DNA from: a virus | Lineage: Duplodnaviria; Heunggongvirae; Uroviricota; Caudoviricetes | IMG/VR virus record: IMGVR_UViG_2879742664_000009 | Length of the DNA: 40,938 nt | Direction: 5' to 3' (one strand) | Shown: positions 1-5,488 of the stretch, piece after piece | Layout of the letters: each line of letters begins with the position of its first letter | How positions within the stretch are numbered: position 1 is the stretch's first letter | Program-made: the position numbers and the translations under genes | Notes under the pieces: generated by a model | Database searches by the model: none | The model's input: the letters and a program-made list of their open reading frames with translations, nothing else | Told to the model about the DNA's origin: nothing

Positions 1-789
1 TCATGCCTGCACCTCCTGCGTCAATTGCCAGAGCGCATCAAGGAAATGTGGAACAAAACTGCCTGGCCCCTCGCTTCTGGCGACTGCGCGTTCTCCGGCT
101 TGTTTCATCCAGTGACAGGCAGATGCGACATTTTCCAGCGTATCGCCTGGTAACGCACAGCAGGCAGCGACAACCGCCGATAATGCACAGCCAGTTCCTA
201 CCACTTTGGTCATTAACGGATCGCCACCGTGAATACCAATGATACGATGTCCATCGGTAACATAATCCATCTCGCCAGTGACCACGACGATTGCGCCAGT
301 TTCCCGTGCCAGTGTTTGTGCAGCGGGTATCGCGTTAGCTGCGGCGTCAGTGGTATCCACTCCCCGTCCACCATTAGCAATGCCAGCTAATGCCATGATT
401 TCCGAAGCATTACCACGTATAGCGGTTGGCTTATGAGGCAGAAGTTCCAGACAAAAACGGCGGCGATAATCGAGTGCACCAACCGCTACTGGATCAAGCG
501 TCCAGGGTGTTTGAGAGCTTTTTGCTTGCTCAACGGCGGCACACATCGACTGTGCGCGTAGCTGCGTCAGCGTGCCAACGTTAATCAGCAACGCACTAGC
601 AATAGCCGCAAACTGACTGGCCTCTTCGGTTTCGATAACCATCGCTGGCGATGCACCGAGCGCCAGCAAGGTATTGGCAGTAAAGGTTTGCACCACATCG
701 TTGGTCATGCAGTGCACAAGAGGGGAATGTTGGTGAAAAAGGTGTAACGCGTGCGCAGATTGCGCTGAACTCTGCAGGTCGACTTGCAT
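1..789 (-). CDS. thiM: hydroxyethylthiazole kinase ThiM (complete; stop at window edge)
   Basis: 262-aa ORF matching E. coli ThiM end to end by recall (MQVDL...QLTQEVQA). Stop TGA at 1-3 overlaps an ATG that would start thiD off-window. Confidence 0.93.
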
Positions 790-794
790 AGTTT

Positions 795-925
795 GCTCCT
801 GCCATAACGTGAAGAAGCAATGACCTGGTGGTCCGTGACTTCCCTACGCTGGCATTATCCAGATCAGGTAATACGGGTATTTCTCAGCCTTCACAAAGAA
901 GGGCACCCCGAGTCATTTAAAACAA
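795..925 (-). ncRNA. TPP (THI-box) riboswitch in thiM leader
   Basis: Reverse complement reads GACTCGGGGTGCCCTTCTTTGTGAAGGCTGAGAAATACCCGTATTACCTGATCTGGATAATGCCAGCGTAGGGAAGTCACGGACCACCAGGTCATTGCTTCTTCACGTTATGGCAGGAGCAAACTATG, the classic thiM aptamer plus expression platform ending at the start codon. Confidence 0.85.
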
Positions 926-1063
926 AATCAAAAGATTGCGATTAACGTCCCGTTAATCCCTGTTCTGGATCATGCCAGCGGAAAGCCAAAGACTCAACCC
1001 TAAAAAATCCTCTGTGTCCCAGTTTGTGTCTCACGTTGTGGCCCACAGATAAATGGCAGGCAC

Positions 1064-1086
1064 AAAAAAACCGCCCATAAGGCGGC
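1064..1086 (-). terminator. putative Rho-independent terminator (minus strand)
   Basis: Minus strand reads GCCGCC-TTATG-GGCGG followed by a T7 run. Confidence 0.45.
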
Positions 1087-2364
1087 TTAAGTAAATTATT
1101 CAGTCGTGAAGATTTAAATGAAATCTATTTTCTGCATACGCTTTCTTCATGCAGTCGAAGTGCTTTTGCCAATTCCAATTGGAATGCAAAGGAAAGACGG
1201 GAACGGCTGATCTTGATACCGTCAATAATGATGTATGTAGGGTAAACAGTGACCATGCGGCCCAAGTATTGGAAGTGTTTAGGGTGGTTTACTTTATCGT
1301 TATTCATTGTGTGCCATCCGTCTGGGTGGGGGTAATCCCGGCAACGGATGATTGATCTAAAATCGATCAAAATCAATAACTTAACAGATCACCAAATCCA
1401 GGGGGGTGTACATTGGCGAGCCTCCCTCAGCCTAACCTATACACGACCATAAAATAGGGGCGGATTCCTTCCAGTTGGGTGGGAAAATATCTGGGAGTTT
1501 GGATACAGTAGCCAGGCAGGGTAACCAGACCCATAGATGAGAATGTTTATTATTCCCAAATATCCAGGCGAGGGGCCTGCTGTGGCTCTCTTTACGCGCC
1601 GCTGTGGCGTCTTCTCTCCTCTTTCTATACAATCCCATAGCTAACCCATTGCGAGGCTTACAGAGCGTTACAGAGCGTCCGTGTGAATATTGCATAAATG
1701 AAAGTGGTGAAAGGTCCGATTTGGTCAACTTTTAGACAACTATTTAACATATGCGCAACAGGTTAGACCTGTACCCTTTCAATAGGTCCGCCTCCTGGGC
1801 GCTGTGTACGCCCCATAACTGTGGCTCTTCTGTACCCATCCGGGAGCCATTCCACAGAGTAAACTGTAAAACTGATCTGCCTGTGAGTAACGCCCTTTTC
1901 CTGTGGATAACTTCCACGCACTAACCCCATAAACTCCCCTTTTGAGGCGTCCGCCTCTTCAGGCCCTTTCTTGTGGCAAAAACACAAAAAGGGTTTAGGG
2001 CGGTGGCTACCGCCCCTGTAGATGGGAATGAGTCGCACTCGAAAGAGGGATTGAGAACCAATTCTCAAGTGATAATCGATCTCATTTGTGTTCGAAGTTT
2101 TCCCCAGAAAAATAATTTTGGGGTTAAGCATGTAAAATGCTACACACTTGCACTTTGTAATGATAATTAATTGACCATAAAAACAAATAGTTAGAAGCGC
2201 TGGGGGAGTCCCACTAGTTACACAATTGATTGCTTTTTGAGCTAAAACTGATTCTTTTACCGGGTATACAATCCATTTGATCGCCCTTTACCACATATTT
2301 AAACGGATTTAAAGCCATTTATTTAGGGGGTTAGCAAAGTGTTGATTCCATGGTTACAGATAAC

Positions 2365-2396
2365 AAAAAAGCCCGCCGGGGGTTAGCCGGGGGCCT
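2365..2396 (-). terminator. putative Rho-independent terminator downstream of tape-measure remnant
   Basis: GC-rich imperfect hairpin (GCCCCCGGC...CCGGCGGGC) followed by T6 on the minus strand. Confidence 0.35.
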
Positions 2397-2500
2397 GTGG
2401 TTGGGGGTGTCAAACGTGGTTAGTTCGGCCCGCCCTGCATTAGCATGTTGAAAGCCTGCTGATTATTGCTCTCAACTTCAGAGCGTACCAGATCCTTAAC

Positions 2501-4019
2501 CTATCCATCCTGCACTTTCACATTAACGTTCACGTTTAGCGGCTGGTTTAGCCACGCTGGCGGCGTCATCAGTGGATTACCTGCCATATCAACTTTAAGC
2601 TGTGGCGCTGTAATCGTCGGCGTAGGAGGTACATAAGTTGGATTGGAGTAAGAGCTTACCCACCCTGTTTTATCTGCTGGTTTGGCAAAGTCTGGATTAG
2701 TCGGAAGGTCTGGACTATGGAGGAAATCCCACAGTTTACCCAGCGGGCTATCTTTTTTCAGATTGCCCCCGGCGGTGGTGTCCTGTCCATACATGGCGTC
2801 GTTAGCGTCATGACCTTATCCCAGGCATAATCCCCACCTACCGAACCGACCGCAATGCTCCAGCCAACAGGACCGCCAGAGAGAGCCGCCGCGCCGCCTA
2901 CCTTGCCAACTTTCGGACCCCGACCCGGTTTGTTTGGCTTGTCTTTACCTTCCCCACCAGATCCGCCAGTAGTAGCGGCTTCAATGCCACCAATAGCGGC
3001 GATCCCTTTCATGACCCCCAGTAATTTGGTTAGTGGGTTAAGCATGGTCAACAACCATTTAAAGGCTACGCCCAACTTCCAGATAGACCCGGCGAACATA
3101 GCCACCCCGGCGGCGTATGCTGCCATTTCGCCCCAGGCTTTAAGCTGCTCACCAGTGATCCCCATCTTGCTGGCGTAATACTCAATAATGCGGAAGGTCA
3201 GGATCACAGTGTCATGCAACTCTGTAAACGCATCTGTGGCACCCTCAACGATTTTCCCGGCAATATGCCCGAACATCTCAAAGGCCCCACCAGAGCCGTT
3301 AACAGCGGCGCTGATAGCGTCGAAAGCGCTGGTTAATTCGTTGCCGAAGCCAGAAGCAAAGAAGATGTTCATCGCGTTCTGCATACTGGTTTGCAGGCGC
3401 TGCCAGCTTGCCCGGTTGGACTTCATAGCCTTATCCAGAGCGCCGCCGTTACGAGCTGCGGCTTTCATCTGTTTAGCCACTTCCGGGAGGATGTCCTTAG
3501 AGAACAGCTTCCCTTGTTGCATCAGGTCAAACAGATCCTTTTCTGTAAGGTTGGTTGTCCCTTTCATCTGGTTGAGAGCCTTAACGAACAGACCCACAGC
3601 CCCCGGGAGAGCTTCGGACAACTGGCCTTTGAGTTCTTCACTCATTACCGTTCCTTTAGACATCATCTGATTCAAACTTTTCAAAGCGCGGCTGGCTTCA
3701 TCGGCTGAAGCACCTGTAACAAGGCCCCATTCACTGGCACCCTCAAAGATGGATCGCATCTGGTCTTTAGGGAGCTTGTCACCAACAGCGGCGGCAAACT
3801 GAGTGTAATCACGGGAAGTCTTGAGGAGATCCAGCCCCAAACGGTTGGATTGATCACGGAGATAATCAAACTCTTTAGCGGCCTTATCTGTGGAACCGGT
3901 GATCGCTGTCAGACCAGAAAGCGCGGATTCAAAATCCTGTCCGGTGGTCATGATCTTGCCGCTCAGCGCCACAGTTGCGGCAATGGTGATCGCCCCGCCT
4001 GCACCCTCGATCATGGAGG
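2501..4019 (-). pseudogene. phage tail tape measure protein, C-terminal remnant (5' truncated by IS629, internal frameshift)
   Basis: ORFs 2758-4014 and 2501-2794 are two frames of one gene, with the frame change near 2812-2822. Tape-measure-type motif (KGTVMSEELKGQLSEALPGAVGLF) and Gly-rich C-terminus. The 5' end abuts the IS629 end at 4020. Confidence 0.7.
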
Positions 4020-4061
4020 TGAACCGCCCCGGGTTTCCTGGAGAGTGTTTTATCTGTGAAC

Positions 4062-4952
4062 TCAGGCTGCCAGATCATCGTTTCCGATGGAAGCATAATA
4101 AGCTTTTTCTGCTTCTGCCGGAGGGATGTGGCCCAGCCTTTCCAGCAATCGTCGATTATTATACCAGTCCACCCACGTGAGTGTGGCCAGTTCCACTTCT
4201 GCACGGTTTTTCCAGCTCTTACGGTGTATTACCTCCGCTTTGTAAAGACCATTGATGCTCTCCGCCATCGCGTTGTCATACGAGTCGCCTGTACTTCCTG
4301 TTGATGCCAGTAATCCGGCTTCCTTAAGCCGCTGTGTGTAGGCCAGCGATACATACTGAGAACCTTTATCACTGTGATGGACCGTGCCGGACGGTCGACG
4401 GGCCCATAACGCCTGCTCCAGTGCATCCAGCACGAATGTCGTCTCCATGGACGATGAGACCCGCCACCCCACAATGTATCCGGCAAACACATCAATGATG
4501 AACGCCACATAGACGAAGCCCTGCCATGTGCTGACGTAAGTAAAATCAGCTACCCACAGCTGGTCAGGTCGTTCTGCCACGAACTGACGGTTTACGCGGT
4601 CGCCTGCGGCAACGGCTTTCCGGCTGATGGTCGTACGGACCTTTTTACCCCGGAGAACACCGGCAAGTCCCATAACCGCCATGAGACGTGCCACAGTGCA
4701 TCTGGCCACTCTGATACCTTCCCGTAACAACTGACGCCAGACTTTACGCACACCGTATACCTGATGATTCCCATCGTATACGCGCAGTATCTCTTTCTTC
4801 AGCCAGTCATCGCGCTGCGCACGGGCACTGCGTTTATCCGGATGATGTCGCTGTTGCTGACAGTGGTAATACGTTGACGGGGCAATATGCAGTTCGCTGC
4901 ATAGCGGTCCGACCCCGTACTGCTCACGCAGCTTATCCAGCAGTGGCATCAT
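4062..4952 (-). CDS. IS629 transposase OrfB
   Basis: 296 aa, MMPLLDKL..., DDE transposase of IS3 family by recall. Confidence 0.9.
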
Positions 4953-5275
4953 TTTTTCCAGAGGCGGTCGAACTCCGCCTTCGCAAAATAAGCGGAAGCC
5001 TGGCGAAGGATATCGTTACTGCGGCGCAGTTCACGATTTTCACGCTCCAGCTCTTTCAGACGCTGACGTTCAGCGGTGGTGAGCCCGCCATCACCGCCCC
5101 CGGTATCCCGCTCATGCTGGCGAACCCAGACACGCAGAGTCTCCGGCGTACAGCCAATCTTTGGAGCAATGGAACAAATTGTCGCCCATTGTGAGTCATA
5201 TTCGCCCTGACTTTCCAGAACCATACGGACTGCCCGTTGACGGACTTCGGGGGAAAAACGAGTATTTTTAGTCAT
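4949..5275 (-). CDS. IS629 transposase OrfA
   Basis: 108 aa, [15 protein letters not shown]..., HTH OrfA of IS629. Confidence 0.9.
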
Positions 5276-5488
5276 CCTGTTTACCTCTTTCTCAGGAAGT
5301 TTAGTCTCCAGGATTCCCGGGGCGGTTCATTGCCTGTATGATCAATCGACTTTGTAGAGTTTCGGACGAAGGTCCGCAGAATATTCGCAGTATTAAATAA
5401 GTGTTCATTAATGCGGCAAAAACTAATACACCGCATCAATGTAACATCTCTGCGGTGTATGAAGAATAACCAGAATGGTTAATAGGCG

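What the first reader, a model, noticed from the sequence alone, without database searches (positions are those of the whole stretch)
1091..2500. Unassigned 1.4 kb between the thiM leader and the tape-measure remnant
This stretch has no convincing coding frame; the track ORFs are short, mutually overlapping and low-complexity. It contains a tandem direct repeat TTACAGAGCG x2 (about 1666-1685), an inverted repeat TTGATC-N7-GATCAA (about 1352-1370) and two minus-strand terminator-like hairpins (1064-1086, 2365-2396). It replaces the rcnR/rcnA region expected next to thiM. It could be decayed gene remnants, a structured RNA, or the regulatory end of a lost mobile element.
Basis: seen in the sequence. 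Interest (0 to 1): 0.45.

Follow-up and report, generated by a model that had tools for sequence, protein, structure and literature searches.

The report
Decayed end of a phage-satellite-like island
The 1.4 kb next to thiM is the mostly non-coding end of a broken ~13.5 kb phage-satellite-like island inserted in the thiM riboswitch; intact relatives carry a chromosome-dif-like XerC/XerD recombination site here, which this copy has lost through a 29-bp deletion.

Summary
The stretch is neither decayed rcnR/rcnA/yeh DNA nor a known RNA. K-12 homology stops at window 918, inside the thiM TPP riboswitch. From 919 to 4017 the window holds the attL-proximal end of a ~13.5 kb integrative element found across Enterobacteriaceae. 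That element encodes an integrase, lambda D/E-like capsid proteins, an O-like replication initiator and a TMP_3 tape-measure-like protein. An IS3-family element cuts it at 4018 and mrp/metG follow, so rcnR to yehE are deleted.

The finding contains:
- a conserved 60-aa gene (1125-1307, minus strand) with its terminator (1064-1088) and an invariant palindrome upstream (1352-1370);
- a ~930-bp conserved non-coding module (about 1418-2350);
- the terminator of the tape-measure operon (2365-2396).

All 10 independent relatives of this module carry a dif-like site, for example GGTGCGCATAA-CAACCA-TTATGTTAAAT, with rigidly spaced conserved elements on the XerC-arm side. Sister elements lack this site and instead encode a small Xer-like recombinase at the same position. 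I read the module as a cer/psi-like resolution site. In the window it is inactivated by a 29-bp deletion. The rest of the module has no assigned function. Interest is moderate.

The parts
824..920 (-). TPP riboswitch aptamer of the thiMD leader (context, outside the finding)
   Evidence: Rfam RF00059, 75.3 bits
844..918 (.). attL. This 75-bp block is repeated at the rcnR side (attR) of the same island in E. coli. Bases from about 870 onward are of the element type, so the crossover lay in 844-869.
   Evidence: BLAST of the window and K-12 against L001/L003; attL/attB/attR alignment A7
919..1063 (.). Element DNA directly upstream of the riboswitch. It must now carry the thiMD promoter (inferred; no convincing sigma-70 match found).
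   Evidence: K-12 homology ends at 918; conserved in thiM-type islands; promoter scan negative
1064..1088 (-). Intrinsic terminator ending the 60-aa gene and insulating thiMD from island transcription
   Evidence: Terminator scan; fold z = -3.1 with U7 tail
1125..1307 (-). Conserved 60-aa gene (MNNDKVNHPKHF...), function unknown; predicted as four beta-strands plus one helix
   Evidence: Open and conserved in L001, L003, L009, L010, L011 and L019, with 3-periodic substitutions; 29 homologues, all hypothetical; AF2 pLDDT 82, no PDB fold match; no Pfam/PHROG family
1352..1370 (.). Invariant palindrome TTGATC-N7-GATCAA within a cluster of three GATC sites (1340-1390), 45-63 nt upstream of the 60-aa gene's ATG; likely operator/promoter region (inferred)
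   Evidence: Sequence; near-invariant in 7 relatives
1418..2350 (.). Conserved non-coding module ('module B') shared with thiM-type and tRNA-Gly-type islands
   Evidence: Colinear homology to L004, L005, L012, L014 and L016-L023; 87-88% identical to L018/L019, against 82-88% for flanking genes
1658..1677 (+).
1742..1751 (-). Remnant of the XerD-binding arm of the dif-like site. The XerC arm and 6-bp central region were removed by a 29-bp deletion between TTTAACATA direct repeats.
   Evidence: Alignment A3 columns 430-470; fuzzy dif scan hits every module-B locus except window/L007; XerD arm to DnaA box is 160 bp here versus 189 elsewhere
1758..1772 (.). Conserved palindrome ACAGGT-TAG-ACCTGT, 17-31 bp from the XerC arm in intact copies
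1880..1912 (+). Two direct repeats CCTGTGAGTAACG / CCTGTGGATAACT about 20 bp apart. The second holds an invariant perfect DnaA-box 9-mer (TGTGGATAA, 1902-1910).
1944..2015 (.). Conserved hairpin GAGGCGTCCGCCTC (1944-1957) and near-invariant palindrome GGGCGGT-GGCT-ACCGCCC (1998-2015), always 97 bp from the DnaA box
2090..2330 (.). AT-rich stretch with a conserved GGGAGT motif (~2207) and three ATTTA(A/T) repeats of about 10-11-bp period (2296-2327); function unknown
   Evidence: GC 0.40-0.42
2365..2396 (-). Intrinsic terminator of the tape-measure operon
   Evidence: Fold plus U6; different stem with the same U-run in L019
2420..4017 (-). TMP_3 tape-measure-like pseudogene: frame broken near 2758-2794, premature stop at 2501, N-terminus cut by an IS (context)
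   Evidence: ORFs; 94.5% identical to the intact 711-aa gene of L003, Pfam TMP_3
4018..5340 (-). IS3-family insertion sequence (IS1203/IS629-like) that truncates the island; mrp and metG follow

Best explanation
Window 919-4017 is the attL-proximal remnant of a ~13.5 kb integrative, phage-satellite-like element that inserts into the thiM TPP-riboswitch leader.

The finding (1091-2500) is that element's end arm. It consists of a small conserved gene with its terminator and operator-like palindrome, a ~930-bp conserved cis-acting non-coding module, and the terminator of the tape-measure operon.

In intact relatives the centre of the module is a dif-like XerC/XerD core site with a 6-bp central region. 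About 260 bp of rigidly spaced conserved elements sit on its XerC-arm side. This matches the architecture of the plasmid multimer-resolution sites cer and psi.

I infer that host XerCD, with accessory factors, recombines directly repeated copies of this site to turn multimers or packaged concatemers of the element into monomer circles. Sister elements do the same job with their own small Xer-like recombinase, encoded at the same position.

In this window the site is dead. A 29-bp slippage deletion removed the XerC arm and central region, the tape-measure gene is a pseudogene, and the rest of the element is gone. The stretch is a relic. Its only likely remaining role is to supply the upstream context (promoter, terminator) of thiMD.

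Shown: island identity and boundaries, the small gene, the dif-like site in relatives and its loss here, the fixed spacing, and the mutual exclusivity with the recombinase cassette.

Inferred: Xer dependence, the resolution function, and what the flanking ~600 bp of the module does.
For: Island and boundaries:
- K-12 homology stops at 918.
- The same left end lies between thiM and rcnR in 35 of 5426 E. coli genomes, with a 75-bp att repeat and an integrase at the far end.
- Complete copies of 13.4-13.8 kb carry int, Phage_cap_E, an HDPD-like 123-aa protein, an O-like initiator and TMP_3.
- Their tape-measure homologues are 74-97% identical across about 10 genera.

The non-coding module is under constraint:
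- It is 87-88% identical between the window and L018/L019, while thiM and the tape-measure gene are 82-88%.
- It lies between convergent genes in the tRNA-Gly islands.

The dif-like site:
- A fuzzy scan for XerC arm + 6-8 bp + XerD arm over all loci and the whole window hit once per module-B locus, always at the same alignment position, and nowhere else.
- The XerD arm matches 11/11 in 12 of 14 hits. Both arms of L016 are identical to E. coli dif, whose sequence I verified in K-12.
- The same scanner finds psi exactly once in pSC101.

Geometry, although the intervening sequence is only ~50% identical between groups:
- XerD arm to DnaA-box repeat: 189 bp.
- Palindrome to DnaA box: 144 bp.
- DnaA box to the GGCGGTGGCTACC palindrome: 97 bp.
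- All within +-1 bp in 10 of 10 intact copies.

Alternative cassette:
- The five loci without the site (L001, L003, L009, L010, L011) are exactly the five that encode a 188-aa tyrosine recombinase at that position.
- Its best family matches are Xer catalytic domains.

Loss in the window: 29-bp gap between TTTAACATA repeats; spacing of 160 instead of 189 bp.

Architecture and role of cer/psi: bioRxiv 10.64898/2026.02.23.706985. Gram-negative PICIs are packaged as phage-length concatemers: PMC10111431.
Against: - No ArcA or ArgR box was found in the putative accessory region. It has no sequence similarity to psi.
- That accessory sequences lie on the XerC side of cer/psi rests on my own knowledge, not on a tool result.
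- The rigidly spaced region is larger than a cer/psi site needs: about 560 bp from the GGGAAAATATC motif to the palindrome. At least one further function must sit here.
- The perfect, invariant DnaA box suggests a replication or regulatory role that the resolution model does not explain.
- The element has its own integrase, and its replication as a free circle has not been shown.
- The 188-aa recombinase could be an invertase. It has weak hits to FimB/E-type invertases, and its module is full of palindromes.
- Nothing here shows XerCD binding or recombination.
Confidence: 0.6

Rival explanations
1. The module is, or also contains, the element's replication origin. Host DnaA binds the invariant TGTGGATAA box and its degenerate neighbour, and the AT-rich stretch and short AT repeats serve as the unwinding region.
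For: - The perfect DnaA 9-mer is invariant in all 13 copies. It is the only one in each element.
- A second similar box lies about 20 bp away in direct orientation.
- An AT-rich region (GC about 0.40) and three ATTTA(A/T) repeats of about 10-11-bp period lie downstream.
- Three GATC sites cluster at 1340-1390.
- The element encodes an O-like initiator but no helicase or loader that I could recognise.
Against: - O-like initiators normally act on iterons inside or next to their own gene. Iteron-like GTAAGCCGTTTAC repeats are present at the start of the O-like gene in L009, 3.5 kb away.
- There is only one perfect box.
- The AT-rich part lies 190-400 bp from the box.
- No similarity to any plasmid in PLSDB.
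- Module-A elements lack the TGTGGATAA box altogether yet share the same initiator.
Confidence: 0.15
2. The conserved core is the packaging (cos/pac) site through which a helper phage's terminase recognises the satellite. The two direct repeats would be terminase small-subunit sites and the palindrome the cutting site.
For: - The element has capsid genes but no terminase or portal, so it needs a helper's packaging machinery.
- The layout (two direct repeats, about 90 bp, then a near-invariant 18-bp palindrome) resembles cosB plus cosN.
- It sits after the last structural gene.
Against: - No phage among 50,697 records shares even a ~20-nt stretch of the core, at E <= 10.
- No lambda-type cosN or P2 cos is conserved anywhere in the elements.
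- Module-A elements lack this core.
Confidence: 0.1
3. The module is a gene for one or more structured non-coding RNAs, for example an immunity or regulatory RNA as in satellite P4.
For: - About 930 bp without a conserved ORF, constrained in length, with several conserved hairpins.
- It lies between convergent genes, so it is not a leader.
- The module-A counterpart folds far better than shuffles, z = -8.1.
Against: - No Rfam family at E <= 10.
- The alifold scan gives consensus structure only in about 200 columns, equally on both strands.
- The covariation term there is +0.05 kcal/mol.
- The stems are perfect palindromes that fold equally on either strand, as DNA sites do.
- Only one weak promoter match was found, fewer than in shuffles.
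Confidence: 0.08
4. The dif-like site makes the element an IMEX-type hitchhiker that can integrate at the chromosomal dif site by XerCD, as an alternative to its own integrase.
For: Both arms of L016 are identical to E. coli dif, and other copies have a perfect XerD arm.
Against: - All copies with flanks sit at thiM or tRNA-Gly, with their own integrase and att repeats.
- There is only one site per element.
- The central regions (CAACCA, CGGTCA, GAGTCA) do not match dif's TGTATA.
Confidence: 0.04
5. The stretch is pseudogenised rcnR/rcnA/yeh or other decayed host genes.
For: The region is adjacent to thiM, where rcnR normally lies. ORFs are short and overlapping.
Against: - BLASTN of the K-12 thiM-yehD region against the whole window matches only 1-918.
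- The same sequence is part of intact mobile elements in other genera.
Confidence: 0.01

Closest known systems
psi (pSC101) and cer (ColE1) plasmid multimer-resolution sites
   Same: - A dif-like core: 11-bp XerC arm, short central region, 11-bp XerD arm.
- The core is flanked on one side by a few hundred bp of non-coding DNA of fixed length.
- The 6-bp central region matches psi and dif.
- The arms are closer to dif than those of psi are.
   Different: - It sits in an integrase-bearing, capsid-encoding chromosomal island rather than a plasmid.
- No ArcA/ArgR box and no sequence similarity in the flank.
- The constrained region is about twice as long.
- Activity is untested, and the window copy lacks the core.
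Gram-negative phage-inducible chromosomal islands (GN-PICIs such as EcCICFT073) and capsid-forming PICIs
   Same: - A 10-20 kb island with an integrase and att repeats, its own replication initiator and a lambda-E-type capsid gene.
- Variable defence-like cargo next to int (PtuA-like ATPase, Abi_alpha).
- PMC10111431 for GN-PICI features.
   Different: - O-like initiator instead of primase/rep.
- No alpA, terminase small subunit, portal or helper-type cos recognised.
- Carries a 700-aa TMP_3 protein.
- About 20% of the element is two large non-coding blocks.
- Targets a riboswitch leader.
P1 Cre/loxP and other replicon-encoded tyrosine-recombinase resolution systems
   Same: The sister 'module A' elements encode a dedicated small tyrosine recombinase next to a palindrome-rich non-coding block, at the position where module B has the host-Xer site. 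P1 uses Cre/lox to cyclise injected DNA and resolve dimers (own knowledge).
   Different: The recombinase is only 188 aa (catalytic domain only), and its target site is not identified. It could be an invertase.
IMEX elements (CTX-phi, VGJ-phi, TLC, gonococcal genetic island)
   Same: A mobile element carrying a dif-like site for host XerCD.
   Different: These elements have their own integrase, sit at thiM or tRNA-Gly rather than dif, and carry a single site with a non-dif central region.

Membership tests
cer/psi-type Xer resolution site | dif-like core: XerC arm, 6-8 bp central region, XerD arm (in relatives of the module) | tested here: met
   One hit per module-B locus, all at the same alignment position. 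The XerD arm is 11/11 in 12 of 14 hits and the XerC arm has 0-4 mismatches. Reference sequences were verified in K-12 and pSC101.
cer/psi-type Xer resolution site | dif-like core present in the window copy itself | tested here: not met
   No hit in the window. A 29-bp deletion leaves only ATTTAACATA at 1742-1751.
cer/psi-type Xer resolution site | Accessory sequences of defined length beside the XerC arm, binding PepA plus ArgR or ArcA | tested here: inconclusive
   Conserved elements at fixed distances (+-1 bp) lie on the XerC side only. No ArcA/ArgR consensus was found, and PepA has no usable consensus.
cer/psi-type Xer resolution site | XerC/XerD-dependent, resolution-selective recombination between direct repeats | not testable with these tools
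   Needs genetics or biochemistry.
Gram-negative PICI-like phage satellite | 10-20 kb island with integrase and flanking att repeats | tested here: met
   13.4-15 kb between thiM and rcnR, with a 71-75 bp repeat and an integrase.
Gram-negative PICI-like phage satellite | Own replication module (primase/rep plus adjacent ori) and AlpA-type regulator | tested here: inconclusive
   An O-like initiator is present. No primase and no AlpA hit among the proteins scanned.
Gram-negative PICI-like phage satellite | Helper-dependent induction and packaging through a helper-type cos/pac | not testable with these tools
   No conserved lambda or P2 cos and no phage match. The helper is unknown.
IMEX | Integrated at chromosomal dif by XerCD, without its own integrase | tested here: not met
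   Copies sit at thiM or tRNA-Gly and encode integrases.
Any Rfam RNA family | Covariance-model match | tested here: not met
   Only the TPP riboswitch; nothing else reaches a gathering score and the remaining hits have E >= 0.16.
DnaA-dependent origin (oriC or plasmid type) | Cluster of DnaA boxes next to an AT-rich unwinding element and initiator iterons | tested here: inconclusive
   One perfect box plus one degenerate box. The AT-rich DNA is 190-400 bp away. Iteron-like repeats are found instead inside the O-like gene.

The most novel reading that the evidence does not exclude
The relatives of this remnant may form an undescribed family of capsid-encoding phage satellites of Enterobacteriaceae. 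They integrate into the 5' half of the thiM TPP riboswitch, bringing a replacement copy of it, or into tRNA-Gly. They would rely on the host XerCD machinery at a psi-like site, or on an interchangeable cassette with their own mini-Xer recombinase, to cut packaged or replicated concatemers into monomer circles. About 20% of the genome is two large, rigidly spaced non-coding blocks whose other functions are unknown.
Probability: 0.3. Interest if true: 0.65.

Novelty: new variant of a known kind. Interest (0 to 1): 0.42.

Why it matters
For this genome the result is housekeeping. An 'unassigned' 1.4 kb is explained as the dead end of a mobile element, and the missing rcnR-yeh genes as an IS-associated deletion.

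Three points have wider interest.

First, a riboswitch leader serves as an attachment site, and at least two unrelated integrase-bearing elements use it (this family and the P4-type island in L007). The element rebuilds the 5' half of the aptamer and must replace the promoter of a vitamin-salvage operon.

Second, a chromosomal, integrase-bearing satellite-like element carries a plasmid-style Xer site. Sister elements swap it for their own recombinase. This is a natural 'either/or' experiment that points to a monomerisation step in the life cycle of such elements.

Third, these elements devote about 20% of a 13.5 kb genome to conserved non-coding DNA, which is unusual for phage-derived elements and unexplained.

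All three points can be tested directly with intact copies from Klebsiella aerogenes, Enterobacter or Cronobacter.

Tried and rejected
- **Rfam.** Gathering threshold on the whole window and E <= 10 on 800-2600, plus three complete relatives. Only the TPP riboswitch matched.
- **RNA structure.** Column-shuffled alifold scan on both strands, RNAalifold of the core and single-sequence folds. There is no covariation, and the palindromes fold equally on both strands.
- **BLASTN against public collections.** The stretch and its 165-nt core found nothing meaningful in 50,697 phages or 72,556 plasmids.
- **Known cos sites.** I looked for lambda cosN and P2 cos in the elements. One look-alike in the other non-coding gap of L009 is not conserved.
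- **Shared motifs.** The element's two non-coding gaps share none.
- **ArcA and ArgR boxes near the Xer core.** None found.
- **Comparison with psi.** Only the core aligns.
- **The 60-aa protein.** No hit in Pfam, PHROGs or NCBIfam. AlphaFold2 gave a confident small beta-meander plus helix, but Foldseek against the PDB found nothing with E < 1.
- **Genome-contig scan, used badly.** My 19-base exact pattern was too strict and returned a single chance hit in an Armatimonadota MAG (L008), so that collection could not be used again.
- **The 163-aa neighbour gene of the tRNA-Gly islands.** It has only two protein clusters in the big database.
- **The 122-aa ORF at 1763-2131.** Rejected as a gene because it is not open in L019.
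- **The TTACAGAGCG x2 repeat.** Rejected as an iteron because it is subgroup-specific.
- **Literature.** Searches found no description of this element family or of a Xer site in a phage satellite. This is a limited library, so absence is weak evidence.
Full report
**1. What is in the sequence**

thiM occupies window 1-789 on the minus strand. Its TPP riboswitch lies at 824-920 (Rfam RF00059, 75 bits).

- The palindrome TTGATC-N7-GATCAA is exactly at 1352-1370.
- The tandem TTACAGAGCG x2 is at 1658-1677, eight bases left of where it was placed.
- The minus-strand hairpin plus T-run at 1064-1088 is called by the terminator scan and folds with z = -3.1.
- The hairpin at 2365-2396 folds and is followed by U6. 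Its orthologue in L019 has a different stem followed by the same U-run, which is good evidence that it is a working terminator.

There is no long conserved ORF between about 1400 and 2400. Relatives differ by indels that are not multiples of three, and the 122-aa ORF at 1763-2131 is closed in L019.

**2. Where the stretch comes from**

A BLASTN of the K-12 thiD-yehD region against the whole window matches only 1-918. So rcnR, rcnA, rcnB and yehA-E are absent, and nothing in the window is a decayed copy of them.

Window 1000-1518 occurs in only 35 of 5426 complete E. coli genomes, always next to thiM. In those genomes (L001, L003) an 8-15 kb island separates thiM from rcnR. Its far end carries an integrase and a second copy of 71-75 bp of the thiM leader, corresponding to window 844-918.

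The attL/attB/attR alignment shows that the thiM-side copy carries island-type bases from about position 870. The crossover therefore lay in 844-869. The island brings its own 5' half of the aptamer and everything upstream of it. The thiMD promoter in lysogens must then be island DNA. This is an inference, since I found no convincing sigma-70 match.

In the window the island runs from 919 to 4017. There an IS3-family element (IS1203/IS629-like, 4018-5340) cuts the tape-measure gene, and mrp and metG follow. The deletion thus took the remaining ~10 kb of the island together with rcnR to yehE.

The many IS copies in the window suggest a Shigella-type genome. That is an inference only.

**3. The element**

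Homologues of the 711-aa TMP_3 protein are 74-97% identical across these genera:
- Klebsiella aerogenes, Enterobacter, Cronobacter and Citrobacter;
- Kluyvera, Kosakonia, Yokenella and Pantoea;
- Pectobacterium and E. coli.

Many lie on 13.2-14.4 kb contigs. These are probably assembly breaks at the att repeat.

Complete copies (L009, L010) have this gene order:
- integrase;
- a PtuA/MAD3-like ATPase, replaced by Abi_alpha or other genes in other copies;
- a lambda E-type capsid gene and a D-like 123-aa gene;
- a 1.5-1.9 kb block without ORFs;
- an operon of small proteins that includes a lambda O-like initiator and a DNA-binding protein;
- a Phage_phiTE_211 protein and the TMP_3 protein.

After these comes the arm that the finding covers.

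No terminase, portal, primase or helicase was recognised. In size and content the element is closest to Gram-negative PICIs, which often carry an E-type capsid gene (PMC10111431). The fit is partial.

A related lineage sits at tRNA-Gly next to ygeQ in E. coli EC24 and LR-29-1.

**4. Anatomy of the finding**

*(a) 1064-1088, terminator.*

*(b) 1125-1307, minus strand: a 60-aa gene.*
- It is open in all thiM-type relatives.
- At 80-87% protein identity its substitutions fall 13/3/7 and 24/5/10 by codon position.
- It has 29 homologues, all 'hypothetical' and all from this element family.
- AlphaFold2 predicts four strands and a helix (pLDDT 82), but nothing in the PDB resembles it.
- It has no family assignment, so its function stays unknown.
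- In the excised circle it would lie just upstream of attP and int, so a role in excision is possible but untested.

*(c) 1308-1417, upstream region.* It holds the invariant palindrome and three GATC sites. It is probably the gene's promoter/operator.

*(d) About 1418-2350, a non-coding module.* It is shared, colinearly, with the tRNA-Gly islands and with metagenomic copies.

*(e) 2365-2396, terminator of the tape-measure operon.*

**5. The module is constrained**

It is 87-88% identical between the window and L018/L019. In the same comparisons thiM and the tape-measure gene are 82-88% identical.

Between the main groups identity is only 51-57%, yet landmark distances are fixed. These are the distances in ten intact copies:

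| Landmarks | Distance |
|---|---|
| XerD arm to DnaA-box repeat | 189 bp (188 once) |
| Palindrome ACAGGTTAGACCTGT to DnaA box | 144 bp (143 once) |
| DnaA box to palindrome GGCGGTGGCTACC | 97 bp (96 once) |
| GGGAAAATATC motif to DnaA box | 446-450 bp |

In the tRNA-Gly islands the module lies between convergent genes. It is therefore not a leader or a promoter region for its neighbours.

**6. The dif-like site**

Reading the nearly invariant block ATTTAACATAATGAC.GTTACACGCACC on the other strand gives GGTGCGTGTAA-CNGTCA-TTATGTTAAAT. This is an XerC arm, a 6-bp central region and a perfect XerD arm.

I ran a fuzzy scan over all fetched loci and the whole window, allowing up to 4 mismatches in the XerC arm, a 6-8 bp spacer and up to 2 mismatches in the XerD arm. 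It hit once per module-B locus, always at this position, and nowhere else. In L016 both arms are identical to E. coli dif.

I checked my remembered reference sequences against real records:
- dif is at NC_000913.3 1590750-1590777.
- psi is GGTGCGCGCAA-GATCCA-TTATGTTAAAC in pSC101, found once by the same scanner.

By my own rough estimate, the chance of such a site in 1 kb is about 2e-6, and it recurs in ten independent copies.

The conserved, fixed-distance elements all lie on the XerC-arm side. The XerD side is variable and rich in indels.

Plasmid Xer sites such as cer and psi are a dif-like core beside accessory DNA. PepA plus ArgR or ArcA wrap that DNA so that only directly repeated sites on one molecule recombine, which resolves multimers (bioRxiv 10.64898/2026.02.23.706985). 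That the accessory DNA adjoins the XerC arm is from my own knowledge.

**7. The alternative cassette**

thiM-type islands come in two versions that share the left 600 bp and the tape-measure gene:
- One has module B (window, L007, L018, L019).
- The other has 'module A' (L001, L003, L009, L010, L011): a different, very palindromic non-coding block (z = -8.1) plus a 188-aa tyrosine recombinase, with or without a 92-aa ORF.

The recombinase's best family hits are Xer catalytic domains, far below family cut-offs. It also has weaker hits to FimB/E-type invertases.

The five loci with the recombinase are exactly the five without a dif-like site. A host-Xer site and a private recombinase occupying the same slot is what one expects if the slot's job is site-specific recombination of the element with itself.

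**8. State of the window copy**

The window, and the identical IMG/VR contig L007, lack the core. Relative to L018/L019, 29 bp between two TTTAACATA repeats are missing, and the XerD-arm-to-DnaA-box distance is 160 instead of 189 bp. What remains is ATTTAACATA at 1742-1751.

The tape-measure gene is frameshifted and truncated, and everything else in the element is lost. So this copy is a relic.

**9. Mechanism proposed**

The following is shown:
- the site in relatives and its loss in the window;
- the fixed geometry;
- the mutually exclusive cassettes.

The following is inferred. After replication from the O-like initiator, or after injection of a phage-length concatemer (as reported for a Gram-negative PICI; PMC10111431), XerCD acts at directly repeated sites and releases monomer circles that can integrate or segregate.

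I put 0.6 on the module being a Xer recombination module. I put somewhat less on the concatemer or multimer purpose.

About 600 bp of the module is not explained by this:
- the GGGAAAATATC motifs;
- the two CGTTAYYCACAGG repeats, one of which holds the invariant perfect DnaA box;
- the two conserved hairpins;
- the AT-rich part;
- the ATTTA(A/T) repeats.

An origin or a packaging site may overlap here.

Against an origin:
- Iteron-like repeats sit inside the O-like gene.
- Module-A elements lack the DnaA box.

Against cos/pac:
- No phage shares the core.
- No lambda or P2 cos is conserved.

Against an RNA:
- Rfam has no match.
- There is no covariation.
- The palindromes are strand-symmetric.

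**10. Verdict**

The 'mobile element end' reading is right, and the other two readings are wrong.

The region itself is an ordinary relic. Its intact relatives show a new variant of a known device, a psi/cer-style Xer site in an integrase-bearing, capsid-encoding satellite-like island that targets a riboswitch. I could not find a description of it in the literature available to me.

Interest 0.42.

Noticed in passing
L007 1-6263, joined to window 870: In an otherwise identical strain (IMG/VR contig), a different island abuts the remnant exactly at window 870, inside the att block. It has a P4-type integrase (Arm-DNA-bind_3), a D5-type primase-helicase, DUF4222 and DUF6387. The thiM riboswitch leader is therefore used by at least two unrelated integrase-bearing elements.
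   Followed up: partly
L009 4050-5910; L010 4782-6556; L015 1440-3154; L012 3034-4567: Complete elements have a second large block of 1.5-1.9 kb without ORFs, between the capsid operon and the initiator operon. It has a hairpin after an invariant GGGTGAGG whose stem sequence differs between lineages, and a promoter-like TTGACT-16-TATTAG about 0.9 kb upstream of the first ORF. It may be a long leader. It shares no motifs with the module studied here.
   Followed up: partly
L003 ~18846-18861 and the same place in L001, L009, L010, L011: The central dinucleotide of the perfect palindrome GGAGGCG-NN-CGCCTCC is GA in three close relatives and TC (its reverse complement) in two. This flip-flop is of the kind produced by hairpin or template-switch events. 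Module B has the TC form.
   Followed up: no
L009 6792-6805, 6846-6859, 6909-6924: Three copies of GTAAGCCGTTTAC (one inverted) lie at the 5' end of the lambda O-like initiator gene. They are a candidate origin inside the initiator gene, as in lambda.
   Followed up: partly
L012 6663-9072 and L013: One lineage lacks the tape-measure-like gene altogether. In its place it has an EcsC-family gene and small ORFs, so that slot is variable cargo. The slot next to the integrase is also variable (PtuA/MAD3-like ATPase, Abi_alpha, unknown genes), like a defence hotspot.
   Followed up: partly
window 940-958 (minus strand): A hairpin GATTAACG-GGA-CGTTAATC followed by a T-rich run lies in island DNA just upstream of the TPP aptamer. 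It is conserved in all thiM-type islands. Its role is unknown (second insulator, or part of the replacement promoter).
   Followed up: no
window 34558-35889 (minus strand): A second TMP_3-domain ORF (443 aa) is flanked by an IS copy. It is not related at the DNA level to the island's tape-measure gene, so it is probably a fragment of another prophage.
   Followed up: partly
window 15080-26578 and 32519-33583: An Acyl_transf_3 gene lies beside a Mu/P2-type tail and baseplate cluster: tail-fibre assembly protein, Baseplate_J, GpP-like hub, DNA circularisation protein, PhageMin_Tail tape measure and sheath. A dinB-like polymerase gene lies further on. The genome context is rearranged relative to K-12.
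   Followed up: no
window 4878-4994, 13284-13400, 30214-30330, 36963-37079, 40065-40181: There are five copies of an IS3-family element with the ALIL frameshift pseudoknot within 41 kb, plus IS911-like copies. This IS load fits a Shigella-type genome and explains the deletion between the island and mrp.
   Followed up: partly
L018 10032-10154: In this metagenomic copy, homology to the thiM-type left arm stops inside the 60-aa gene (at codon 32) and unrelated sequence follows. It is either a different attachment context or a rearrangement.
   Followed up: no
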